Virus record (IMG/VR): IMGVR_UViG_2974702911_000001
Span: 1 to 64,000 of that record
Length of the DNA stretch: 64,000 bases
From: a virus
Lineage: Duplodnaviria; Caudoviricetes
Reading direction: 5' to 3' (one strand)
Shown here: positions 2,751 through 57,701 of the stretch, in pieces
How the letters are laid out: each line of letters opens with the position of its first letter
How positions within the stretch are numbered: the stretch's first letter is position 1
Translations under genes and position numbers: made by a program
The notes under the pieces: model-generated
Told to the model about the DNA's origin: nothing
Database searches by the model: none
The model's input: the letters and a program-made list of their open reading frames with translations, nothing else

Positions 2751-4391
2751 ATGGCTATTGAGCTACCGGAGTCAATCTCCGATGGTGAGGTTAAGAAGTT
2801 CATTGAGAACGTGCTATGGCCGGAGTTCGTTAAGAAGCGCGAGGGTCTGGACAAGATCGCTAAGTGGGCGCGTGGTGACCAGCCGGATTATCTGATTCAG
2901 AACGCTAATGCGGAGAAGCGGGCGCTGCTTAAGCTCGCTAAGACGCCTTGGCTGGGTCTGGTGGTTACGCACTTCACGCAGGCGCTCTTTGTGGACGGCT
3001 ACCGCGCGGAAGGCGCTAAGGAAAACGCTAGCGGGCCGTGGCAGACGTGGAACGCGAACAACATGCAGTCGCGGCAGATCGGTATTCACCGGGCCGCACT
3101 GACGTACGGGTACGCATTCGCACGCGTTTTGCCTGGTACGGCGCTTGACGGCGCCAATCAGGCCGAAATCCGCGGTGTGTCTCCGCGTCGGCTCCTGGCC
3201 CTCTATGAGGATCACGTCAACGACGAGTACCCGAGGTACGCGCTTGAGCTTGCGAACAACGGTAAGTACGTGCGGCTCTACGACGAGAACCACTACTGGG
3301 AACTTAAGATGCCGCATCCGGGCCAGTTCCGGACTGAGGACACTCCTAAGAAGTACCGGCACGGCGTGGGCGTCTGTCCGTTTGTTCGCTACCTGAATAT
3401 GCAGGACTTGGACGGCTTCACGATGGGTGAGGTTGAGTACCTGATCCCGGTTGCGTCGAAGATCGACAAGACGGACTACGACCGGCTGCTAGCGCAGCAT
3501 TACAACTCTTGGAAGGTTAAGACTGCTACCGGCATCGACGACCTTGACTCGGATGCGACGGAAGAGGACCAGGCGCGCGCAAAGCTGATCCTGGCTCACG
3601 ACGACATTCTGATGCACGGTAACGAGCACGCTAAGTTCGGGACCCTGCCGGAGACGAGCCTTGACGGCTTTATCGCGGCGCATGTGCAGGACGTTGAAAT
3701 CCTCGCTACGAACGCTCAGGTCCCGGTGTGGGTCCTTAATGGGTCGCTCGCCAATCTTTCGGGAGACGCGCTTACAGCGGCCACTAAGAGCACGATTCAG
3801 AAGCTCTACGAACGGCAGATCACGTTTGGCTCGGCGCACAACCAGCTTCTACGGCTGGCGGCGCATGTTGAGGGTGATAAAGAGGGCGCGCGTGACTTCA
3901 CGGCCAGTGTGTCGTGGCAGGACACGTCGGTTCGCTCGCTTGCTCAGGCGGTAGACGCTTACGGCAAGGCCGCGACGATGCTCGGTATGCCGAAGGAATT
4001 CCTGTGGGGTCTGATTCCGGGGATTACTAAGACGGACGTTGAGCAGATGCGCCAGCACTTCAACGATGACGACGATATGACGCAGATGCTTCTTTGGTGG
4101 ACTGCTAATGGCCCTGGTGGTCAGTTCGCAGCCGACATTGAGGTTGATACGCAGGAGCGCGTGATCGAAGCGCAGGGCGCGGTTCAGAAGGACTTGCAGG
4201 ACGCTCAGGCTAAGGCTCAGAAAGAGCTAGCTAAGCAGAATGCGGAGGCTCAGGCGAAGGCGGCGGCTCAGGCTGCGCGTGTTCAGCCTGCGGCTGCTTC
4301 TGGCGCGCGGAAAACGTCGAGCACGACTAAGCGGACGCCTAAGAAATCTGGCGGGGTCAACGGTAATGACCCGTCGAGTAGGGCGGCATAA
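2751..4391 (+). CDS. portal protein
   Basis: Follows TerL; SPP1-like portal features (YGYAF, VCPFVRYLN, ANLSGDAL, VSWQDT). Confidence 0.92.
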   Translation: MAIELPESISDGEVKKFIENVLWPEFVKKREGLDKIAKWARGDQPDYLIQNANAEKRALLKLAKTPWLGLVVTHFTQALFVDGYRAEGAKENASGPWQTWNANNMQSRQIGIHRAALTYGYAFARVLPGTALDGANQAEIRGVSPRRLLALYEDHVNDEYPRYALELANNGKYVRLYDENHYWELKMPHPGQFRTEDTPKKYRHGVGVCPFVRYLNMQDLDGFTMGEVEYLIPVASKIDKTDYDRLLAQHYNSWKVKTATGIDDLDSDATEEDQARAKLILAHDDILMHGNEHAKFGTLPETSLDGFIAAHVQDVEILATNAQVPVWVLNGSLANLSGDALTAATKSTIQKLYERQITFGSAHNQLLRLAAHVEGDKEGARDFTASVSWQDTSVRSLAQAVDAYGKAATMLGMPKEFLWGLIPGITKTDVEQMRQHFNDDDDMTQMLLWWTANGPGGQFAADIEVDTQERVIEAQGAVQKDLQDAQAKAQKELAKQNAEAQAKAAAQAARVQPAAASGARKTSSTTKRTPKKSGGVNGNDPSSRAA

Positions 4392-39800: not shown

Positions 39801-39883
39801 GTGGCGAAGGTAACTGCTGGTTTGTTACACCTGCCTGTAAAGCAGGCGCTTCGGCTTCGGGGGTTCAATTCCCTCTCGCCACA
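39801..39883 (+). tRNA. tRNA-Tyr(GTA), atypical D-arm, no encoded CCA
   Basis: GTGGCGA/TCGCCAC acceptor; CCTGC-CTGTAAA-GCAGG; long variable arm; GGGGG-TTCAATT-CCCTC. Confidence 0.8.
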
Positions 39884-39916
39884 CGCTTTACCAGTAACCA
39901 AACCCTTAAGGATGAC

Positions 39917-41057: not shown

Positions 41058-42497
41058 ATGACCACATTCCTACGCAGCCTGCAAGAGCAGTTCAACCACA
41101 CCACGACGGAGAACGGCGCTCTGGCCCATAAGAGCAGCTTTGATCCGGTGGTGGATTACTTCGGACTGGCGGGCGCTATGCGTAACCGGGCTGAGGCTTC
41201 GGCTGACCTGTTTGAGACGGCGTTCCGCTCGGACGTGCAGGCCGCGATCCGGACCCTGTTCTATCTGCGCGATGTGCGCGGCGGTCAGGGCGAGCGCGAT
41301 GTGTTCCGCGCGGGCCTTAAGCGGCTCGTCGGCCTTAGCCCCGTTAAGGCTGGCCGGGTGTTGCAGCACGTCCCGTTCTATGGGCGCTGGGACGATCTGC
41401 TGATTGAGGGTGTGTTCCAGCACCCGGAGGTCCAGAAGATCATCCTTAACCAGTGGACGGCTGACGTTGCGGCGTACGAGCGCGGCGAGGGCGTGTCGCT
41501 GATGGCTAAGTGGCTCCCGTCCGACAAGGCGGCGAACAAGGAACTGGCTATCGCGGTCCGTAAGTCGTTGGGCTTGTCGCAGCGCGAGTACCGCCAGACC
41601 CTTAGCGCGCTTAGGTCGCGGATCGGCCTGCTTGAGCAGTCCATGTCCCGGAACGATTGGGATATCGACTATGGCAAGCTCCCGGCGCAGGCGCACCGTA
41701 AGCACGTCAAGGCGTTCCGTCGTCACGCGGAGGGTGAGTACCAGGCGTACTTGGATGCCGTCGAGCGCGGCGAAGCCAAGATCAACACGTCCACGCTGTA
41801 CCCGCATGAGCTTTACGACATGGCGACCCGTTATGGCGGCGACCGTAAGGCCGCTGACGTGATGTGGAACAACCTGCCGGATTACACGCGGGGTACGGAG
41901 GCCATCGTCATGGCTGACGTGTCGGGGTCCATGCACCAGTCGTGGAGCCAGGGCGCTAACCCAATCGCGGTGTCGGTGTCGCTGGCGCTGTACTTCGCGG
42001 AGCGGAACCAGGGCGACTACGCGGGGTACTTCATGACCTTTGCGTCCACTCCGGCGCTCATGAAGGTGCCTTCCGGGGACCTGAGCGCCCGTCTGAGCGC
42101 CATTGAGAACTCTACGGGGTGGATGGGTAGCACGGACGTTGGAAAGGCGTTTGACGCGATCCTGGCGGCTGGCGTGAAGTCAGGCACTGTCCCGGCGACT
42201 CTCTACATCATTTCGGACATGCAGTTCGACCAAGCGATTGACGACGGAAACGATACGACGTTCCAGACGGCTAAGCGGAAGTTCGCGGCTGCCGGGCTGG
42301 AATTGCCGCACGTCGTGTTCTGGAACGTTGACGCTCGGAACGACCAGCTTCCGGCGACGATCTTGGACGGCCAGGTCACCTTGGTTTCCGGGTTCTCGCC
42401 CACGGTGTTCGGGATGGCGGTAGAGGGCAAGACTCCGCGCGAGCTTGTGGACTCCGTTATCAACGGTGAGCGCTACGAGCGGATTAATCCGTTCTAA
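41058..42497 (+). CDS. Ro60-like RNA-binding protein (DUF2828-type helical domain + vWA)
   Basis: TTENGA, RDVRGGQGER, YGRWDDL, AKWLPS; vWA MIDAS DVSGSM; ISDMQFD; VFWNV. Confidence 0.85.
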   Translation: MTTFLRSLQEQFNHTTTENGALAHKSSFDPVVDYFGLAGAMRNRAEASADLFETAFRSDVQAAIRTLFYLRDVRGGQGERDVFRAGLKRLVGLSPVKAGRVLQHVPFYGRWDDLLIEGVFQHPEVQKIILNQWTADVAAYERGEGVSLMAKWLPSDKAANKELAIAVRKSLGLSQREYRQTLSALRSRIGLLEQSMSRNDWDIDYGKLPAQAHRKHVKAFRRHAEGEYQAYLDAVERGEAKINTSTLYPHELYDMATRYGGDRKAADVMWNNLPDYTRGTEAIVMADVSGSMHQSWSQGANPIAVSVSLALYFAERNQGDYAGYFMTFASTPALMKVPSGDLSARLSAIENSTGWMGSTDVGKAFDAILAAGVKSGTVPATLYIISDMQFDQAIDDGNDTTFQTAKRKFAAAGLELPHVVFWNVDARNDQLPATILDGQVTLVSGFSPTVFGMAVEGKTPRELVDSVINGERYERINPF

Positions 42498-42500
42498 AAA

Positions 42501-42529
42501 TTCCATAGTTGCGGGCTAGGCCGTAAGCT
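42501..42529 (+). promoter_or_regulatory. putative promoter for the ncRNA array
   Basis: TTCCAT-17 bp-TAAGCT; predicted start near 42536, just before module 1. Confidence 0.5.
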
Positions 42530-42539
42530 ATGCGATAGG

Positions 42540-42592
42540 TGGACACAGACAGCAATTACTTTGTTTGCATACAACAGAGAAACGTGTCCAGT
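42540..42592 (+). ncRNA. Y-like RNA module 1 (CAT-centred 7-nt loop)
   Basis: TGGACAC/GTGTCCA stem; ACAGCAA at 42549; CTTTGTT-TGCATAC-AACAGAG hairpin. Confidence 0.7.
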
Positions 42593-42600
42593 AATGCTTG

Positions 42601-42730
42601 TGGACCCCCACAGCAATTAACAACTCACAGGAAAAACTGCGGGTCGCGGGTTCAAATCCCGCCACCGGGCCATAAACCCGGTGTAGCTCAGTGGTAGAGC
42701 AGCGGTCGAAGTTAACAAACGGGGTCCAGT
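42601..42730 (+). ncRNA. Y-like RNA module 2 with circularly permuted tRNA (YrlA-like)
   Basis: TGGACCCC/GGGGTCCA stem; ACAGCAA at 42610; T-arm, then loop-closed acceptor stem, then D-arm. Confidence 0.85.
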
Positions 42731-42741
42731 TAAAGCGGTTG

Positions 42742-42798
42742 TGGACGGTAACAGCAACCTAAAACTTTCACTGCTAATGAAATCAAATTCCGTCCAGT
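42742..42798 (+). ncRNA. Y-like RNA module 3 (Ser-GCT anticodon stem-loop)
   Basis: TGGACGG/CCGTCCA stem; ACAGCAA at 42751; TTTCA-CTGCTAA-TGAAA. Confidence 0.75.
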
Positions 42799-42814
42799 TC
42801 TACCGCGCTTAGAT

Positions 42815-42846
42815 GCCGACCGTCCTCCGGGACTGGTCGGCTTTTT
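42815..42846 (+). terminator. intrinsic terminator of the ncRNA array
   Basis: GCCGACC...GGTCGGC stem followed by T5. Confidence 0.85.
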
Positions 42847-42870
42847 GCTGCCCAAACTAAGGGAGACACC

Positions 42871-43212
42871 ATGAGAAAGATCATTGGCGGCGCGCTGGTC
42901 GCTGCGGTCGCGCTGGCGCTGCCCGCGTGCGCCACGCAAAACCAGCACTGGGAGAACAACTGCAAGGTCACGTCCAAGGACACCATTTACGACAAGGATT
43001 CCGAGGGCGGCGTTAAGCGCGTTAAGCGGGTTAGCACGACGTGCGGCGCGTTTAACGTGGAGGACGCCTGGGAGGCCGGGTCCTTCAACAGCTACGACCT
43101 GTGGGCCAAGCTGGAAGAGGGCAAGGTCTACGACCTCAAAGTTGGCGGCATCCGCAACGGCTTCTTTTCCATGTTCCAGACGGTGCTTGAGGTCAAGGGT
43201 CCGAATGGCTAG
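42871..43212 (+). CDS. secreted/lipoprotein
   Basis: GGGAGA RBS; signal peptide plus LPAC lipobox. Confidence 0.7.
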   Translation: MRKIIGGALVAAVALALPACATQNQHWENNCKVTSKDTIYDKDSEGGVKRVKRVSTTCGAFNVEDAWEAGSFNSYDLWAKLEEGKVYDLKVGGIRNGFFSMFQTVLEVKGPNG

Positions 43213-50103: not shown

Positions 50104-50964
50104 GTGGTGGCCGTTTACCTGAGGGCTTACACGCCTGAGCTTGGCACTATTCGCAACGTCGCTGAGAAGTTCCAGTTTCCCGGTGGTGAGGTAGACCTTA
50201 AGCACGTTCACCCGTTCTACAGCGGCATGGACGTTACGTGGGTCGCGGACGTACGCGGTGCGGCGCTTGACGACCTCATGGCGGCGCTTCTGCTGGCTGA
50301 CCACGCCTTTGAGCGTGACGACAAGTTCGTGCTAATGCTGCCTTACCTCCCGGCCGCTCGGGCCGATAAGGGGTCCCCACTAGGCGCTCGCGCTTATGCC
50401 GACATGCTCAACTATCGGCGGGGGACGTTCGGTAAGCAGGTCATCACCATTGACCCGCATTCTGAGGCCGGGGCGGGGCATTACAACTCGCTTACGGTGC
50501 TTGATTCGCTGCCGCTGCTGGACCGGGCTTTGGAGAGCCAGGGGCATTGGCGTTACGACGGGATCATTTCGCCAGATAAGGGCGCGATTGATCGGGCAAG
50601 CAGGGTCGCGCAGCATTACGGGCTGGACCTGTACGTGGGCGATAAGAAGCGGGATCAAGCCACCGGCAAGATTCTTAGCTACGACCTAAGTATTCCTAAG
50701 CTCGGCAAGTATCTCGTCGTTGACGATATTTGCGACGGCGGGTGGACCTTCACGGAGCTTGCGCGCGCGAGCGGCGTTTATCAGCCGCAGTTGGATTTGT
50801 GGGTGACGCACGGAATCTTTTCCGGTAACGCGCATCACCTTAAGCGGTATTACCGGCGCATTCTCACGACCGACTCGCACCCCGGCCATAACCGGGTGGG
50901 TGTCGCTACGACGATTGTGCCGACTTTCACTTACATGCATGAGGCAATGGTTAAGGGGCTTTAG
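50104..50964 (+). CDS. ribose-phosphate pyrophosphokinase-like enzyme (Adps-like)
   Basis: FPGGE, PYLPAARADK, DPHS, SPDKGA, VVDDICDGGWTF PRT motif, THGIFS. Confidence 0.9.
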   Translation: MVAVYLRAYTPELGTIRNVAEKFQFPGGEVDLKHVHPFYSGMDVTWVADVRGAALDDLMAALLLADHAFERDDKFVLMLPYLPAARADKGSPLGARAYADMLNYRRGTFGKQVITIDPHSEAGAGHYNSLTVLDSLPLLDRALESQGHWRYDGIISPDKGAIDRASRVAQHYGLDLYVGDKKRDQATGKILSYDLSIPKLGKYLVVDDICDGGWTFTELARASGVYQPQLDLWVTHGIFSGNAHHLKRYYRRILTTDSHPGHNRVGVATTIVPTFTYMHEAMVKGL

Positions 50965-52439
50965 TGAGCACGAAATTCGCGCCGGTTGCGGCGCTGTTCC
51001 AGACGGACGCATACAAGCTGGGGCACATTCAGCAGTACGCGCTTAGCGGGAACGTGACTAACGTCTATTCCAACTGGACTAACCGGAAGTCGCGCCTGCC
51101 GGGCGTCGATAAGGTCGTTCACTTCGGGTTGCAGGCTTATATCGCTAAGCACCTGATGGAAGCGTTTGAGCCGTTCTTTGACGCTGATGAGGACACGGTT
51201 GCCGCGCTGTACGAGGAACGCGTTACGCAGATTCTCGGGCCTAACACGATTGGCTCTGGTCATATCCGCAAGCTGCACCAGAAGGGCTACCTTCCGCTGC
51301 GGTTCTGCGCGGTGCCGGAGGGGACGATGGTTCCTATCGGCGTGCCCAGCTTCACCGTGGAGAACACGGACCCGGAGTTCTACTGGCTGACCAACTATGT
51401 GGAGACGGGCATTAGCGCGGGTGTGTGGCAGGCCAGCACTAGCGCGACCATCGCTAAGGAATACCGGCGCGTGATGATGGACGCGGCGCGGCTTACCGGT
51501 GCGGACACGGTTGGCGTTGACTGGCAGATTCACGACTTCTCTTACCGGGGCATGTCCTCGCATGAGAGTGCGGCTGTGTCGGGCGCGGCTCACCTGTTGA
51601 GCTTCACCGGGACGGACTCGCTGGTGGCGCTTGATTGGATCGACCGCTACTACGGCGGCGAGTACATCGCCGGTTCGGTCCCCGCCACGGAGCATTCGGT
51701 GATGTGTACCGGCATTGAGACGGTGGGCGAGCTTGAGACGTTCCAGCGGCTCTTGGCGCTGTACCCGGAGGGGATCGTTAGCGTCGTTAGCGACACCTTC
51801 GACCTGTGGCGGGTGCTGTGGGAGTACCTGCCTGCGTTGCAGAAGCAGATTCTCGCGCGCAACGGCAAGCTGGTGATCCGGCCCGACTCGGGCGATCCGG
51901 AAAAGATCATCTGCGGTGATCCTGACGCGCCAGTTGGCTCTAAAGAGTGGTACGGCGTGCTGGGCGCTCTCTACGAGCACTTCGGCGGCAAGCAGAACGC
52001 GGCGGGCTTCATTGAGATTGATTCGCACGTAGGCGTCATTTACGGCGACTCCATCACTCTTGAGCGCGCTAAGAGCATCACTGACCGGATGGCGAAGCTC
52101 GGCTATGCCTCTTCCAATGTGGTGTTCGGCGTGGGCAGCTTCACCTACCAGCACAACACGCGCGACACGTTCGGGTCCGCGATGAAAGCGACGTGGGTCA
52201 AGGTCGGCGGTAACACGTACGACCTGCTTAAGGACCCGGTTACGGACGACGGCACTAAGAAGTCTGCGACCGGGCGTCTGGCGGTGCTGCGCGATCTGCA
52301 CGGCGAGCTTGTCTTGCTGCAAAAGGCCGACTGGATGGACGAATACTCGTCGGAGCTTCGTCCGGTTTGGGAGAACGGAAAGTTCCTCACCCACCAGTCA
52401 TTCGCCAACGTCAGAGGCGTGCTCGGGCTGTACTCGTAA
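50964..52439 (+). CDS. nicotinamide phosphoribosyltransferase-like enzyme (Nampt/Namat-like)
   Basis: TDAYKLGH, HDFSYRG, PATEHS, VSDTFD, IRPDSGDP, YGDSIT, FGSAMKAT, KKSATG. Confidence 0.95.
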   Translation: MSTKFAPVAALFQTDAYKLGHIQQYALSGNVTNVYSNWTNRKSRLPGVDKVVHFGLQAYIAKHLMEAFEPFFDADEDTVAALYEERVTQILGPNTIGSGHIRKLHQKGYLPLRFCAVPEGTMVPIGVPSFTVENTDPEFYWLTNYVETGISAGVWQASTSATIAKEYRRVMMDAARLTGADTVGVDWQIHDFSYRGMSSHESAAVSGAAHLLSFTGTDSLVALDWIDRYYGGEYIAGSVPATEHSVMCTGIETVGELETFQRLLALYPEGIVSVVSDTFDLWRVLWEYLPALQKQILARNGKLVIRPDSGDPEKIICGDPDAPVGSKEWYGVLGALYEHFGGKQNAAGFIEIDSHVGVIYGDSITLERAKSITDRMAKLGYASSNVVFGVGSFTYQHNTRDTFGSAMKATWVKVGGNTYDLLKDPVTDDGTKKSATGRLAVLRDLHGELVLLQKADWMDEYSSELRPVWENGKFLTHQSFANVRGVLGLYS

Positions 52440-52464: not shown

Positions 52465-52524
52465 GATTCGCGTCTGTCCGGACTGTCGGTGCTTGACTAA
52501 TTGCAGACGAGAAAGGGGGTCAGA

Positions 52525-53484
52525 ATGGCTCTGACTCTTACCGCGATGCGGGGATACCCCGGCTCGGGTAAAAGCACCAAGGCGCGGGAGATTGCGGACG
52601 CTACCGGCGCTGTCGTGGTGTGCAGGGACGACCTGCGGAAGATGCTGCACGGCGTGTACTTCAACACCGGGGATAACCACCCTAAGACGCCTAAGGAATT
52701 TGAGGATCAGGTAACCATCGCGGAGCGTGCGGCGGTTCAGGCTTACCTCAAAGAAGGCGTGTCGGTTGTCGTGGACGCTACGCATTTGGAGCCGTCTTAC
52801 CTCCGTAAGTGGGCGAAGATGAGCGCGCAGTACGGCGCTGAGTTTGTCCGGGTCGATGTGCCTACTCCGGCATGGGAGTGCATTCGGCGGGACGCGGAGT
52901 ACCGCTCGGGGACGCCTAAGTATGTCGGGCCGGAAGTGATTACCCGCATGGCTAAGCGTCACCCGATTAAGAACTGGCCGAATATCCAAGCGCCTCCGAC
53001 GTTCAACCCTGAGCCGGTTGAATGGCAAATGGGCCTGCCTGCGGCAATCATTGTCGATATCGACGGGACGCTGGCTCACATGGCGGGCCGGAGTCCTTAC
53101 GACTACACACAGGTCCACACCGACACGGTTGACGAGCAAGTTCGGTGGCTAGTGAACACGATTCACCAGCAGTCGAGTTTCTTTAACGAACCGAGTCCAA
53201 AGGTGCTGATTGTGTCCGGTCGGGACGACACCTGCCGGGAGGCTACGGAGAAGTGGCTGGCTGAGCACGGCATCCGCTACGACGCCTTACATATGCGGCC
53301 TACTGGCTCTGTGGACAACCACGGAAACAAGCTGCCGGATTACATGGTCAAGTCGGCCCTGTTCGATAAGCACATTCGCGGCAAGTACAACGTCCGTTTT
53401 GTGCTGGACGACCGTAATCAGGTCGTGGACCTGTGGCGCTCGCTCGGGCTTAAGTGCCTGCAAGTTCAACCGGGAGATTTCTAA
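52525..53484 (+). CDS. pnk: polynucleotide kinase-phosphatase (T4 Pnk-like)
   Basis: P-loop GYPGSGKST, RDDLR; HAD DIDGTLA, SGR, DDR. Confidence 0.93.
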   Translation: MALTLTAMRGYPGSGKSTKAREIADATGAVVVCRDDLRKMLHGVYFNTGDNHPKTPKEFEDQVTIAERAAVQAYLKEGVSVVVDATHLEPSYLRKWAKMSAQYGAEFVRVDVPTPAWECIRRDAEYRSGTPKYVGPEVITRMAKRHPIKNWPNIQAPPTFNPEPVEWQMGLPAAIIVDIDGTLAHMAGRSPYDYTQVHTDTVDEQVRWLVNTIHQQSSFFNEPSPKVLIVSGRDDTCREATEKWLAEHGIRYDALHMRPTGSVDNHGNKLPDYMVKSALFDKHIRGKYNVRFVLDDRNQVVDLWRSLGLKCLQVQPGDF

Positions 53485-56077: not shown

Positions 56078-56406
56078 CTGTTTATCGCAATCGCCAGGGG
56101 AGCGGGTTGTTCATCGTCTTTAAGTACGTAGACGGTGAGCTTGATACCGGCAGCTATACCGGCAGCTATGCGCGTAAGCCACCGGCCCGCACATACAACA
56201 TGCCCGGCCAAGCTAAGGCGCAGTGGAACCGGTTCATTAAGGACGGTTACGACGCGCGCGCGGCTGAAATCGGCTTTGACGAGAGCGGCCAGCCATTCAT
56301 CCGCTTCATTGACGAAGAGTGGACGCCCACCGTCGAGCTTTGCAAGTACAGCAAGTACGGCAAGACCTGCAAGTTAAAGAAAGATCACGAAGGGATTCAC
56401 CAGTGA
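56074..56406 (+). CDS. hypothetical protein
   Basis: Coupled ORF; C-terminal C..C.L...H.G.H. Confidence 0.55.
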   Translation: MTVYRNRQGSGLFIVFKYVDGELDTGSYTGSYARKPPARTYNMPGQAKAQWNRFIKDGYDARAAEIGFDESGQPFIRFIDEEWTPTVELCKYSKYGKTCKLKKDHEGIHQ

Positions 56407-57701
56407 GCTTCGACGCGCCGGAGAACGTTAACTACGCGGCGACCATCGTTAAGCTGCCTGAGCCTCAGGCGGTGCCGGGGCTGGACAACCTCGTCGGTAT
56501 CCCGATGTTCGGTTACCAGGCGCTAACGCAGAAGGACTCCGCTAAGGCGGGGGACCTCCGGGTGCTGTTCGTCGCGGAGACGCAGCTTGACCATGAGTAC
56601 GCGAGCGCGAACAACCTGTACCGGGAGGCGACCCTTAACGCGGACTCCACGCAGACCGGCTACCTAGAGCAGAACGCTCGGGTTAAGGCGATCCGGCTCC
56701 GTAAGAACCAGTCGGACTGTCTGCTGATGCCGCTTGAGTCGCTGGCCTACACCGGCTACGACGTGAGCACGCTCAAGGTCGGGGACACGTTCGACAAGCT
56801 GAACGGCCACGTTGTTTGCCGGAAATACGTTCCCGCTGGTCAGCGCACCGCCGGCTCGGTTGCTGGGGCGCCCAAGATTCGCCAGCGGGTTGACCAGAAG
56901 TTGTTCCCGATGCATCTGGACACGGAGCACCTGTTCCGGAACCTCCAATGGTTCCGTAAGCCCCGCCACGTCGTCATCACGCAGAAGTTGCATGGGACTA
57001 GCTGGCGCGGCGGGAACGTGCCTGTGCGGCGCGATAAGGGCCGTTTGGAGCGCCTTGTGAACCGGTTGGGGATCAAGACTCCGGACACGGAGTACGAGCA
57101 TGTGTTCGGCTCGCGCCGGGTGGTCAAGGGCAAGAGCACCGACAACCACTACTACGAGTCCGATCTGTGGACCGACTACGGGCAGAAGCTCTTGGGGCTT
57201 ATCCCTAAGAACTTCATGGTCTACGGCGAGCTTATTGGGTGGGTGGACGACCAGTCCCCGATTCAGAAGGGCTACACGTACAACCTGCTGCCGGGCACCG
57301 CTGAGCTTTACGTGTACCGGGTGGCGACGGTTAACGAGGACGGCGTTATCGCTGACCTGTCCTGGGAGGGCGTTAAGGACTTCTGCCGGTCGCTTGGGCT
57401 TAAGTGGACGCCTGAGCTTTGGGCGGGGATCGAATGCGTGCCGCAGTCGGTAGACGATGAGAGCTTCGTTTCCGGCTACCAGTTGGACTACTTGGACGTG
57501 CGGTTTACCGAGAGTCCGGGTGCTGAGCATTTCAACGAGGCTCCGGTGCCGCTTAGCAACGCTAAGACGGTGGATGAGGGCATTTGCGTGCGGATTGAGG
57601 GTCAGATTCCGCGCGTGTTCAAAGCCAAGTCTCCCAAGTTCTTGGAACACGAGACTAAGGCGCTTGACAACAATGAGGTCGATTTGGAGGCCGCTGCTTA
57701 A
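56403..57701 (+). CDS. ATP-dependent RNA ligase (Rnl2-like)
   Basis: Motif I TQKLHGT, YGEL, DEGICVR, FKAKS. Confidence 0.88.
   Translation: MSFDAPENVNYAATIVKLPEPQAVPGLDNLVGIPMFGYQALTQKDSAKAGDLRVLFVAETQLDHEYASANNLYREATLNADSTQTGYLEQNARVKAIRLRKNQSDCLLMPLESLAYTGYDVSTLKVGDTFDKLNGHVVCRKYVPAGQRTAGSVAGAPKIRQRVDQKLFPMHLDTEHLFRNLQWFRKPRHVVITQKLHGTSWRGGNVPVRRDKGRLERLVNRLGIKTPDTEYEHVFGSRRVVKGKSTDNHYYESDLWTDYGQKLLGLIPKNFMVYGELIGWVDDQSPIQKGYTYNLLPGTAELYVYRVATVNEDGVIADLSWEGVKDFCRSLGLKWTPELWAGIECVPQSVDDESFVSGYQLDYLDVRFTESPGAEHFNEAPVPLSNAKTVDEGICVRIEGQIPRVFKAKSPKFLEHETKALDNNEVDLEAAA

What the first reader, a model, noticed from the sequence alone, without database searches (positions are those of the whole stretch)
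42559..42782. Isolated anticodon stem-loops as cargo in modules 1 and 3
Module 3 has a canonical anticodon arm, TTTCA-CT GCT AA-TGAAA (42766-82; Ser-GCU), with no other tRNA part. Module 1 has a 7-bp stem closing TG CAT AC (42559-79), i.e. CAU centred in a 7-nt loop. Established: mycobacterial VapC and MazF toxins and anticodon nucleases cut specific tRNAs in the anticodon loop. Inference: these loops are decoy substrates or sensors presented on the Ro-like scaffold.
Basis: partly seen in the sequence, partly recalled or inferred. Interest (0 to 1): 0.75.

Follow-up and report, generated by a model that had tools for sequence, protein, structure and literature searches.

The report
Anticodon-arm look-alike on phage Y-like RNA
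A mycobacteriophage encodes, right after a Ro60-shaped protein gene, three small RNAs built on one shared "handle"; the tip of the third is shaped like a tRNA anticodon arm, a design that recurs in many unrelated phages and may bait enzymes that attack or read tRNA anticodon loops.

Summary
Both hairpins are in the sequence at the stated coordinates. They are the variable tips ("cargo") of two short Y-RNA-like modules (M1 42540-42592, M3 42742-42798). These flank a YrlA-like tRNA-mimic module (M2) downstream of a Ro60-fold DUF2828/vWA gene in a cluster L mycobacteriophage.

M3 (UUUCA-CUGCUAA-UGAAA) fits the anticodon-arm pattern. M1 (7-bp stem, UGCAUAC) does not, because it has G where U33 should be. 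M1 belongs to another conserved loop class.

- In 109 loci around related Ro-like genes, the same stem+ACAGCAA frame occurs 200 times on the gene strand and 8 times on the other.
- Seven nucleotides is the commonest cargo loop length.
- 16 of 35 non-redundant 7-nt loops read Y-U-NNN-A-A/C, 11 of them on exactly 5-bp stems.
- The same rule is met by about 3% of chance hairpins in the same loci, by about 0.2 per set of shuffled cargos, and by 85% of real phage tRNAs.
- The pattern occurs in 18 of 46 Ro-like lineages that carry modules.

The structural mimicry is therefore well supported. The decoy function remains inference. The M3 stem is thermodynamically weak, a loop-handle pairing competes with it, and known mycobacterial VapCs do not target Ser-GCU.

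Earlier reports of this scan found the handle-plus-cargo family in other genomes. I found no published description of it.

The parts
41058..42497 (+). Ro-like protein gene (DUF2828 + DUF7788/vWA). The predicted fold matches Ro60 over its full length.
   Evidence: ORF. Pfam PF11443 and PF25043, no TROVE hit. AlphaFold2 pLDDT 80. The twelve best Foldseek PDB hits listed (all at E<=0.001) are Ro60/Rsr/TROVE chains: 9l5y, 2nvo, 9kop, 1yvr and others.
42502..42535 (+). Hairpin between the Ro-like stop codon and module 1. It may be a processing site or a weak terminator.
   Evidence: Folded in both MFE and centroid structures. A different GC-rich hairpin sits at the same place in L1/L2 phages.
42540..42592 (+). 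Module 1, a short Y-like RNA. Closing stem 42540-46 / 42584-90, handle ACAGCAA 42549-55, cargo 42556-83, trailing GU.
   Evidence: Module finder. Stem covariation in alignment A1.
42559..42579 (+). M1 cargo hairpin CUUUGUU-UGCAUAC-AACAGAG. It is not anticodon-like (G at '33'). It belongs to the loop class UGCAUAY/UGCGGAU.
   Evidence: The same loop, UGCAUAU, sits on a CCU/AGG stem in L031-L035, and UGCGGAU occurs in L2 phages.
42601..42728 (+). Module 2, a YrlA-like tRNA mimic. Same closing stem and handle, with T arm about 42645-62, a closed acceptor-like stem 42663-85 and a D arm about 42686-702.
   Evidence: Rfam RF02553 gives 38.3 bits, E 8e-7, below the gathering score of 69. Module finder.
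42735..42806 (+). Extended lower helix around module 3: GCGGU 42735-39 pairs with ACCGC 42802-06.
   Evidence: Read. It covaries to GCGGC/GCCGC in Bromden, Douge and LeBron.
42742..42798 (+). Module 3, a short Y-like RNA. Closing stem 42742-48 / 42790-96, handle ACAGCAA 42751-57, cargo 42758-89, trailing GU.
42766..42782 (+). M3 cargo hairpin UUUCA-CUGCUAA-UGAAA. It is an anticodon-arm look-alike: 5 bp, 7 nt, C32 U33 GCU A37 A38.
   Evidence: Identical in all L3-type phages fetched. CUGUUAA sits on the same stem in CELFI, and CUGCUAA on UUCUU/AAGAA in M1 of Douge, Chaser and DyoEdafos. Class statistics.
42815..42846 (+). Intrinsic-terminator-like hairpin (GCCGACC-GUCC-UCCG-GGAC-U-GGUCGGC) followed by U5, ending the RNA array.
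   Evidence: The consensus scan missed it because of a bulged U. A GC hairpin plus T-run sits at the same place in all 15 cluster L loci.
52501..53484 (+). Polynucleotide kinase-phosphatase (context: RNA end-healing).
   Evidence: Pfam PF25109 HAD_PNKP 1.5e-48 and AAA_33.
56319..57701 (+). RNA ligase (context: RNA sealing).
   Evidence: Pfam PF09414 4.3e-10.

Best explanation
The two hairpins are the exchangeable tips of two short Y-RNA-like molecules.

The ~350-nt non-coding stretch after the Ro60-fold gene is one transcription unit, ended by a terminator. It holds three modules. Each module has a covarying closing stem and a single-stranded ACAGCAA 'handle', which I infer to be the docking site for the Ro-like protein. 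Each also has a variable cargo that I infer to be displayed.

M2 displays a tRNA body without an anticodon arm (YrlA type). M3 displays a free-standing anticodon-arm look-alike: a 5-bp stem and the loop C-U-GCU-A-A. M1 displays a different conserved loop, UGCAUAC.

Most likely function (inferred, not shown): the Ro-like particle presents the M3 arm as a pseudo-substrate or bait for host proteins that read or cut anticodon loops. This would draw them away from real tRNAs, or couple such damage to the phage's own Pnkp/RNA-ligase repair.

I put about 0.75 on the structural identification (anticodon-arm-class cargo on a Ro-like handle) and about 0.3 on the decoy/bait step.
For: Shown:
- The closing stems covary: 90.8% of cells paired, 4 pairs with double changes, and 25-43% paired when the partner is slid.
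- The frame is specific to the gene strand beside Ro-like genes: 200 against 8 modules in 109 loci.
- The protein has the Ro60 fold.
- Cargo hairpins of short modules peak at 7-nt loops, 43 of 100.
- Among 35 non-redundant 7-nt loops, C32 occurs 19 times, U33 24, A37 30 and A38 22. Sixteen loops fit Y-U-NNN-A-[AC], against 1.35 under within-loop permutation (0 of 20000 permutations reach the observed count). Eleven of the 16 sit on exactly 5-bp stems.
- Dinucleotide shuffles give 0.19 such loops per set. Chance hairpins in the same loci meet the rule 2.9% of the time. Real phage tRNAs in the same loci meet it in 86 of 101 cases and have the same position profile.
- The middle triplet varies (GUU, UCU, UUU, GCU, UGA, UCC, CAU, GAU, GUA and others) while the flanks stay constant, in 18 of 46 Ro-like lineages with modules.
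- The loops CUCAUAA and CUGUUAA are identical to those of real tRNA-Met and tRNA-Asn in these phages.

Context for function:
- Pnkp and RNA ligase are in the window.
- Modules lie among tRNA genes in the Felix O1-type and Bacillus (FADO) phage loci and directly after three tRNA genes in the Campylobacter phage locus.
- An RtcB-like ligase lies near the Listeria phage homologue.
- The Ro60-like gp130 of Felixounavirus Bas63 counters the Ppl defence system (PMC11482910).
- Bacterial Ro60/YrlA sit in the RtcBA repair operon, which is regulated by damaged tRNAs (PMC7790460 abstract; PMC4201824).
Against: - There is no expression, binding or cleavage data for this phage.
- The M3 stem is all A-U apart from one C-G pair. 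It has dG 0 on its own and is out-competed in silico by AGCA/UGCU pairing with the handle.
- Cargo stems in general are far more AU-rich than real anticodon stems, which are 43% AU.
- Only about one fifth of cargo hairpins are anticodon-like. Other recurrent loop classes exist (AUU(U)GG, UGCAUAY, GCUAA(A)), and M1 is one of them.
- Loops complementary to the handle are over-represented: 11 of 35 against 2.9 expected.
- The exact M3 arm is found in no tRNA gene of 185,579 representative genomes.
- tRNA-Ser(GCU) is described as not targeted by the known mycobacterial VapCs (PMC10264068).
- The handle is not the published Ro60-binding motif (GGUCCGA or GNCGAAN0-1G).
Confidence: 0.4

Rival explanations
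1. Adaptor rather than decoy. As classical Y RNAs tether Ro60 to PNPase, the anticodon-arm-like tip would recruit a tRNA-binding enzyme to the Ro-like ring. Candidates are phage Pnkp/RNA ligase, host t6A37 or other anticodon-loop modification enzymes, an aaRS or the ribosome. The particle would then work on damaged tRNAs or RNAs.
For: The published model has the Y RNA acting as a tether (PMC4201824). Pnkp and RNA ligase are in the same genome. Twelve of the 16 strict loops are C-U-N-N-U-A-A, the loop of ANN-decoding, t6A37-bearing tRNAs (from my own knowledge), against 32 of 101 with U36-A37-A38 in real phage tRNAs. That bias suggests one common reader of U36-A37-A38 rather than many different nucleases.
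Against: No partner has been identified. The varied triplets are not needed for a single common partner. The stems are weak.
Confidence: 0.22
2. Loop-handle pairing. The UGCU of the M3 loop (and UUGC at the M1 loop) pairs with AGCA/GCAA of the conserved ACAGCAA handle, as a pseudoknot or an alternative fold. This would gate access of the Ro-like protein to the handle. On this view the resemblance to an anticodon arm is a by-product.
For: RNAfold prefers AGCA/UGCU in M3, with pair probability 0.72-0.81. Eleven of 35 loops carry at least 4 nt complementary to AACAGCAA, against 2.9 expected. CUGUUAA, the commonest loop, matches AACAG.
Against: Twenty-four of 35 loops have no such complementarity yet keep C32, U33, A37 and A38. 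The handle hardly varies (two G-for-A variants in cluster L: ACAGCGA and GCAGCAA), so it gives no usable covariation. The variant ACAGCGA shows no matched loop change.
Confidence: 0.12
3. Structural cap only. The tips merely close the modules. A 7-nt loop with a U-turn on a short stem is a compact, nuclease-resistant fold that selection finds repeatedly, and nothing reads the loop.
For: Cargo is very diverse, with 4-10-nt loops and several classes. Within cluster L the tips change between subclusters. [quoted passage not shown]
Against: Identical loops recur on different stems in distant lineages: CUGUUAA four times, CUUCUAA twice, CUUUUAA twice and UGCAUAY twice. A cap would not need C32, A37 and A38 together, nor an exact 5-bp stem.
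Confidence: 0.15
4. Chance resemblance in an AU-rich spacer.
For: A single 17-nt hairpin is weak evidence. The exact 17-mer occurs at chance frequency in bacterial genomes: 79 hits against about 70 expected (my estimate).
Against: Shuffles, within-loop permutations, background hairpins and the strand control all reject chance for the class. M3 is invariant across L3-type phages while its flanks vary.
Confidence: 0.03

Closest known systems
Bacterial Y RNAs bound by Ro60/Rsr: YrlA (Rfam RF02553), YrlB, and D. radiodurans Yrn1/Yrn2 (Chen et al. 2014, PMC4201824)
   Same: They are encoded beside a Ro60-fold gene on the same strand, several per locus, and processed from one precursor. Each has a terminal stem plus a displayed module. 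One member mimics tRNA (T, D and acceptor arms), and others are long hairpins with a small loop. Yrn1 was drawn with a possible 'anticodon arm' of 5 bp.
   Different: The protein here is DUF2828/vWA, not a Pfam TROVE Ro60. The handle is ACAGCAA after the 5' stem strand, not GNCGAAN0-1G or GGUCCGA. M1 and M3 do not match RF02553, and M2 falls below its gathering score. The free-standing 5-bp/7-nt anticodon-arm class with variable triplets was not described; the Yrn1 loop has 6 nt.
Handle-plus-cargo RNA arrays beside DUF2828 genes, as noted by earlier reports of this scan (e1-3496497, e1-5822128, e1-2125920, e1-4045630)
   Same: They share the frame: a ~7-bp closing stem, ACAGCAA and a trailing G. 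They share the protein family and the tRNA-mimic cargo. One note already mentions anticodon-arm mimics.
   Different: Those are unreviewed AI notes on other genomes. This report adds a quantitative test of the anticodon-arm class and places the two cluster L tips in or out of it.
Ro60-like gp130 of Felixounavirus Bas63 (PhageMaP preprint, PMC11482910)
   Same: It is a homologous protein family: Felix O1-type phages are hit by tblastn with the window protein at 34-35% identity. It lies next to tRNA-like genes. The authors suggest some of these 'tRNAs' may be Y RNAs, and they show that gp130 counters the Ppl defence.
   Different: It comes from a different phage and host. The RNAs were not defined and no anticodon-arm cargo was described. 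Ppl is not known to act on tRNA.
Phage answers to anticodon nucleases: T4 Pnkp+Rnl repair of PrrC-cut tRNA-Lys, and nuclease-insensitive phage tRNAs (PMC10264068, PMC11555353)
   Same: The conflict is the same (host cleavage of anticodon loops), and Pnkp and RNA ligase are present in this phage.
   Different: Those mechanisms repair or replace tRNAs. An RNA decoy of the anticodon arm has not been reported in the papers I could search.
E. coli thrS mRNA operator hairpins, which mimic the tRNA-Thr anticodon arm (from my own knowledge; not checked here)
   Same: It is an isolated anticodon-arm mimic outside a tRNA that is read by a tRNA-binding protein.
   Different: It is a cis-regulatory mRNA element bound by its own synthetase. 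It is not a stand-alone RNA on a Ro-like scaffold.

Membership tests
tRNA anticodon arm (as a mimic) | 5-bp stem closing a 7-nt loop | tested here: met
   Met for M3: UUUCA/UGAAA with a 7-nt loop. M1 has a 7-nt loop but a 7-bp stem. Eleven of the 16 strict-class loops in relatives sit on exactly 5 bp.
tRNA anticodon arm (as a mimic) | U33 preceded by a pyrimidine at 32 | tested here: met
   Met for M3: C32 U33. NOT met for M1, which has U32 G33. Only 1 of 101 real phage tRNAs in these loci has G33.
tRNA anticodon arm (as a mimic) | Purine at 37 and A/C at 38, able to form the 32-38 pair | tested here: met
   M3 has A37 A38. M1 has A37 C38. Real tRNAs have A37 in 92 of 101 and A38 in 84 of 101.
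tRNA anticodon arm (as a mimic) | Constant flanks with a variable middle triplet across homologues | tested here: met
   Twelve different triplets occur in 18 lineages, with C32, U33, A37 and A38 kept.
tRNA anticodon arm (as a mimic) | Stable helix comparable to a real anticodon stem | tested here: not met
   M3 alone has dG 0 and pair probability about 0.1 within the module. Real stems are 43% AU, whereas cargo stems are almost all AU.
tRNA anticodon arm (as a mimic) | Recognised by an anticodon-loop enzyme (nuclease, modification enzyme, synthetase) | not testable with these tools
   This needs biochemistry.
Y RNA (Ro60 partner) | Encoded next to, and on the strand of, a Ro60-type protein gene | tested here: met
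   M1 starts 43 nt after the stop codon of a gene whose model matches Ro60 structures. The strand bias across loci is 200 to 8.
Y RNA (Ro60 partner) | Stem formed by the 5' and 3' ends | tested here: met
   The closing stem has compensatory changes. M3 has an additional lower helix, 42735-39 with 42802-06, which covaries.
Y RNA (Ro60 partner) | Published Ro60-binding motif (GGUCCGA helix or GNCGAAN0-1G near the 5' end) | tested here: not met
   The conserved element is ACAGCAA. GUCGAAG occurs only inside M2, on the 3' side.
Y RNA (Ro60 partner) | Physical binding to the Ro-type protein | not testable with these tools
   This needs a pull-down or RIP experiment.
YrlA (Rfam RF02553) | Score at or above the gathering threshold, with T, acceptor and D elements | tested here: not met
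   M1 and M3 give no match at E<=10. M2 scores 38.3 bits against a threshold of 69, matching model positions 24-84 only.
Handle-plus-cargo RNAs beside DUF2828 genes (family seen by this scan, unpublished) | At least 7-bp closing stem, ACAGCAA 0-4 nt after the 5' strand, trailing G, next to a DUF2828 gene | tested here: met
   All three window modules meet this.

The most novel reading that the evidence does not exclude
Phage Ro-like particles would be programmable RNA decoys. A constant handle loads onto the Ro-like ring, and a swappable anticodon-arm tip, whose triplet is tuned to the host's tRNA-cutting defences or toxins, soaks up or senses those nucleases. That would be an RNA-based counter-defence class parallel to nuclease-resistant phage tRNAs. 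The strong C-U-N-N-U-A-A bias would then point to the ANN-decoding, t6A-bearing tRNAs (Lys, Asn, Arg, Ser, Met, Ile, Thr) as the contested targets.
Probability: 0.2. Interest if true: 0.9.

Novelty: new variant of a known kind. Interest (0 to 1): 0.66.

Why it matters
Ro60/Y-RNA particles are known, and so is their tRNA mimicry. What their displayed RNA modules are for remains an open question. This report describes a widespread phage version of the system, found in 46 of 55 sampled Ro-like lineages. In it, one cargo class is a statistically solid copy of the anticodon arm alone, with a triplet that changes from phage to phage.

Host cleavage of anticodon loops is a major anti-phage strategy, and a homologous protein has been shown to counter a defence system. 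This gives a concrete hypothesis that can be tested in a safe laboratory model (M. smegmatis and cluster L phages): RNA decoys or baits for anticodon-loop enzymes.

It also warns annotators about the region. ORFs such as Finnry gp55, called across this spacer, are probably not genes.

Tried and rejected
- **Rfam:** at permissive E-values over 42300-43000 only the YrlA-like core of M2 matched. Nothing matched M1 or M3.
- **Pseudoknot idea (loop UGCU with handle AGCA):** kept as a rival but rejected as the general explanation. Most anticodon-like loops have no complementarity to the handle.
- **Extended-stem reading (U33 pairing with A37):** rejected. A37 stays constant whatever base sits at 33, so there is no 33/37 covariation (loop list).
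- **M3 arm copied from a real tRNA:** the exact 17-mer occurs 79 times in 596 Gb, close to the ~70 I expect by chance. None of the hits lies in a tRNA gene or after a handle.
- **Matching the triplet to the phage's own tRNAs:** the near-identical phage Whirlwind has no tRNA-Ser(GCU) and no tRNA-Met, so no simple correspondence exists.
- **Consensus scans:** the terminator scan missed the obvious terminator because of a bulge, and no sigma-70-like promoter was found between the gene and M1. Co-transcription with the Ro-like gene, or a non-consensus mycobacterial promoter, remains open.
- **Whole-array fold:** the full-length MFE of the array mispairs distant parts and was not used for conclusions.
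- **Supplementary tables of Chen et al. 2014** (the list of 22 phages) are not held. I could not check whether cluster L phages were among their YrlA hits.
- **The Annual Review on bacterial Ro60** (PMC10870794) is not held.
- **Host comparison:** I did not obtain the M. smegmatis tRNA-Ser(GCU) sequence for a stem comparison.

Full report
**What the window is.** The region matches cluster L mycobacteriophages (Lumosvirus). Finnry and Whirlwind are about 94% identical over the 381-nt query. The ORF at 41058-42497 is annotated in relatives as 'Ro-like RNA binding protein'. By Pfam it is DUF2828 + DUF7788/vWA, not TROVE. Its AlphaFold2 model (pLDDT 80) has Ro60 structures as its best full-length PDB matches: Thermus phage phiLo Ro60, D. 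radiodurans Rsr, and Xenopus and human Ro60, all at probability 1.00. 'Ro-like scaffold' is therefore justified at the fold level. The same window also encodes a polynucleotide kinase-phosphatase and an RNA ligase.

**The observation.** Both hairpins are present as described. M3 is UUUCA-CUGCUAA-UGAAA at 42766-82. M1 is CUUUGUU-UGCAUAC-AACAGAG at 42559-79. Neither ARAGORN nor Rfam calls a tRNA there. M3 satisfies every sequence rule of an anticodon arm. M1 does not, because it has a 7-bp stem and G at the position of U33. Thermodynamics gives one caveat. The M3 hairpin alone has dG 0, and in the module context RNAfold prefers pairing of the loop's UGCU with AGCA of the conserved handle.

**Anatomy of the locus.** The 373-nt spacer holds three modules with one frame:
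- a closing stem (UGGAC+N / N'+GUCCA);
- the motif ACAGCAA 0-4 nt after the 5' strand;
- a variable cargo;
- a trailing G.

The closing stem is supported by compensatory changes among 19 distinct module sequences (GGAC/GUCC, GGUC/GACC, GAGC/GCUC). Of all cells, 90.8% are paired, against 25-43% when the partner is slid. M2's cargo is a YrlA-type tRNA mimic with T arm, closed acceptor stem and D arm. It scores 38.3 bits on RF02553, below the gathering score. M3 has an extra lower helix (42735-39 with 42802-06) that covaries in other subclusters. A GC-rich hairpin plus U5 at 42815-46 ends the array. All 15 cluster L loci examined keep the three modules.

**Tips within cluster L.**

| Module | Subcluster or phage | Cargo tip |
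|---|---|---|
| M3 | L3 type | CUGCUAA |
| M3 | CELFI | CUGUUAA on the same stem |
| M3 | Bromden group | AAUGG / ACUGG |
| M3 | L1 | ..CGCUAA.. |
| M1 | L3 | UGCAUAC |
| M1 | L2 | UGCGGAU |
| M1 | Douge, Chaser, DyoEdafos | CUGCUAA on UUCUU/AAGAA |
| M1 | L1 | AUGGUAA on UUUCA/UGAAA |

The tips are exchangeable, and an x-U-G-N-U-A-A loop recurs in both module positions.

- I fetched 8 and then 80 IMG/VR loci around relatives of the protein, down to about 34% identity. I added 8 named phages infecting Salmonella (Felix O1 type), Listeria, Bacillus, Enterococcus, Campylobacter, Staphylococcus, Vibrio and Aeromonas.
- A simple finder looked for a stem of at least 7 bp whose 5' strand ends 0-4 nt before ACAGC[AG]A. 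It found 200 modules on the gene strand and 8 on the opposite strand.
- Of 160 distinct cargos, 102 are short (60 nt or less).
- RNAfold on these short cargos gives 100 hairpins. Their loop length peaks sharply at 7 nt: 43 loops, with the next classes at 13 each.
- After removing redundancy, 35 seven-nt loops remain. They have C at 32 in 19, U at 33 in 24, A at 37 in 30 and A at 38 in 22. Twenty fit Y-U-NNN-R and 16 fit Y-U-NNN-A-[AC]. Eleven of those 16 sit on exactly 5-bp stems.

**Controls.**
- Dinucleotide shuffles of the cargos give 5.8±2.3 seven-nt loops and 0.19 strict loops per set.
- Permuting bases within each loop gives 1.35 strict loops, and 0 of 20000 permutations reach 16.
- 3,567 chance 5-bp/7-nt hairpins elsewhere in the same loci, with tRNAs and modules masked, meet the strict rule in 2.9% of cases, or 3.7% if AU-rich.
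- As a positive control, 86 of 101 real phage tRNA anticodon arms from the same loci meet it, with the same position profile.

Clustering the Ro-like proteins at 70% identity gives 55 lineages. Forty-six of them have modules and 18 have at least one strict anticodon-like tip. The middle triplets differ: GUU four times; UCU, UUU, UGA, UCC and GCU twice each; and CAU, GAU, GUA, CAA, GAA and AUU once each. The prediction 'constant flanks, variable triplet' therefore holds, and the stated refutation condition ('random inner hairpins with no anticodon-loop consensus') is not met.

**Limits of that support.**
- Anticodon-like tips are the largest class but make up only about a fifth of cargo hairpins. 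Other recurrent classes are AUU(U)GG, GCUAA(A) and UGCAUAY/UGCGGAU.
- The window's M1 falls in the last class. The same UGCAUAU loop sits on an unrelated CCU/AGG stem in loci L031-L035. The loop is therefore probably functional, but it is not an fMet anticodon mimic.
- Cargo stems are far more AU-rich than real anticodon stems.
- Eleven of 35 loops carry at least 4 nt complementary to the handle, against 2.9 expected. A loop-handle interaction therefore cannot be dismissed, especially for this window, where both tips have it.
- Twelve of the 16 strict loops are C-U-N-N-U-A-A, a stronger bias to U36 than in real tRNAs (32 of 101). This hints at one common reader of U36-A37-A38. From my own knowledge, this is the signature of ANN-decoding tRNAs that carry t6A37.

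**Function.** Nothing here measures function. The arguments for a role in tRNA-centred conflict are contextual:
- Pnkp and RNA ligase are in the same genome, as LeBron's are in PMC13148394.
- In the Felix O1-type and Bacillus (FADO) phages the modules are interspersed with tRNA genes, and in the Campylobacter phage they directly follow three tRNA genes.
- An RtcB-like ligase lies near the Listeria phage gene.
- Bacterial Ro60/YrlA belong to the RtcBA repair operon, which is regulated by damaged tRNAs (PMC7790460).
- The Ro60-like gp130 of Felixounavirus Bas63 is needed to overcome the Ppl defence system, and its authors guessed that nearby 'tRNAs' might be Y RNAs (PMC11482910).

Against a specific decoy for known mycobacterial toxins:
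- The VapCs discussed in PMC10264068 cut Ser-GGA/UGA/CGA/AGA, and that paper calls Ser-GCU untargeted.
- The phage itself carries no Ser-GCU or Met tRNA, judging by its 94%-identical relative Whirlwind.
- The M3 arm is not a copy of any tRNA arm in 185,579 representative genomes.

I therefore commit to 'displayed anticodon-arm mimic that engages anticodon-loop-reading proteins, most likely as bait or decoy', at about 0.3 for the functional step. The adaptor model is the main rival.

**Comparison with what is known.** Chen et al. 2014 (PMC4201824) established several points:
- YrlA-type tRNA mimics lie next to Ro60 in more than 250 bacteria and 22 phages.
- There are several Y RNAs per locus, processed from one precursor.
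- A second 'long hairpin with small loop' Y RNA exists in each of three species.
- Yrn1 has a possible 5-bp 'anticodon arm' with a 6-nt loop.

The present RNAs work like Y RNAs, but they fail two membership tests for the published families: the Ro-binding motif and the RF02553 threshold. They also accompany a different protein family. I found no paper describing the ACAGCAA handle or anticodon-arm cargo.

Earlier reports of this scan have met the handle-plus-cargo family beside DUF2828 genes many times in other genomes: 108 notes held all my search words. One of them mentions anticodon-arm mimics. These are unreviewed notes. My counts were made independently before I read them. They agree with those notes on the frame and add the quantitative test.

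**Verdict.**
- The finding is a new variant of the Ro/Y-RNA kind and is of real interest, because it yields a sharp, testable counter-defence hypothesis.

Noticed in passing
window 42502-42535: A stable hairpin (CAUAG-UU-GCGG...CCGU-AAG-CUAUG) lies between the Ro-like stop codon and module 1. L1/L2 phages have a different GC-rich hairpin (GGAUACCGG...CCGGUAUCC) at the same place. It may be an attenuator or a processing site.
   Followed up: partly
L001 819-1034 (Finnry gp55); window ORF 42539-42697: A 'hypothetical protein' is annotated across modules 2-3 in Finnry, MiniLon, MiniMac, MsGreen and Samty. The region evolves by compensatory stem changes and its relatives lack the ORF, so this is probably a false gene call.
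   Followed up: partly
window 42663-42685: M2's acceptor-like stem is 7 bp (CACCGGG/CCCGGUG) and is capped by CCAUAAA, so a CCA follows the 3' strand. [quoted passage not shown] The phage RNA may likewise be split into halves.
   Followed up: no
window 50104-52439: A phosphoribosyltransferase and a NAPRTase/NAMPT-like gene lie side by side, suggesting NAD salvage. This could be a counter to NAD-depleting defences. They lie upstream of Pnkp (52501-53484).
   Followed up: no
L101 3230-4080 (Salmonella phage FO1a), L103 780-1500 (Bacillus phage FADO), L104 760-1500 (Enterococcus phage iF6): Handle-bearing modules are interspersed with tRNA genes in FO1a and FADO, and stand in an unannotated gap upstream of the DUF2828 gene in FADO and iF6 (iF6: four modules, three with tRNA-like cargo). 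Their 3' ends read ...YYUG rather than the ...CCAGU of cluster L.
   Followed up: partly
L019 about 3130-3215 and L093 1288-1377: Some modules combine an anticodon-arm-like hairpin (UUUUCA-CUCAUAA-UGAAAA; AUUUCC-CUUCCAA-GGAAAU) with a T-arm-like hairpin but have no D arm or acceptor. These are intermediate forms between 'arm only' and 'tRNA body' cargo.
   Followed up: partly
Bromden, CELFI, Chaser and DyoEdafos M2 (e.g. L007 about 830-850); L104 about 815-830: In the tRNA-like modules the hairpin at the variable-arm position is itself anticodon-loop-like: UCC-AUGAUAA-GGA, CCA-CUGGUAA(A)-UGG and ACAU-CUGAAAA-AUGU.
   Followed up: partly
short-module cargos of L036-39, L041, L100, L108, L007, L022: A second recurrent tip class has 5-6-nt loops reading A-(A/U)-U-(U)-G-G (AAUGG, AUUGGA, AUUUGG) on unrelated stems. 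Its meaning is unknown.
   Followed up: no
hits H59/H60 (Caulobacter phage CcrColossus 109361-109420): The T-arm/acceptor part of M2 matches a 60-nt stretch of a Caulobacter jumbo phage at 84% identity, with nothing annotated there. It could be a tRNA or another YrlA-like element.
   Followed up: no
window 39801-39884: A tRNA-Tyr(GTA) with a long variable arm lies 1.2 kb upstream of the Ro-like gene, apart from the main tRNA cluster at the window's end (63180 onward).
   Followed up: no
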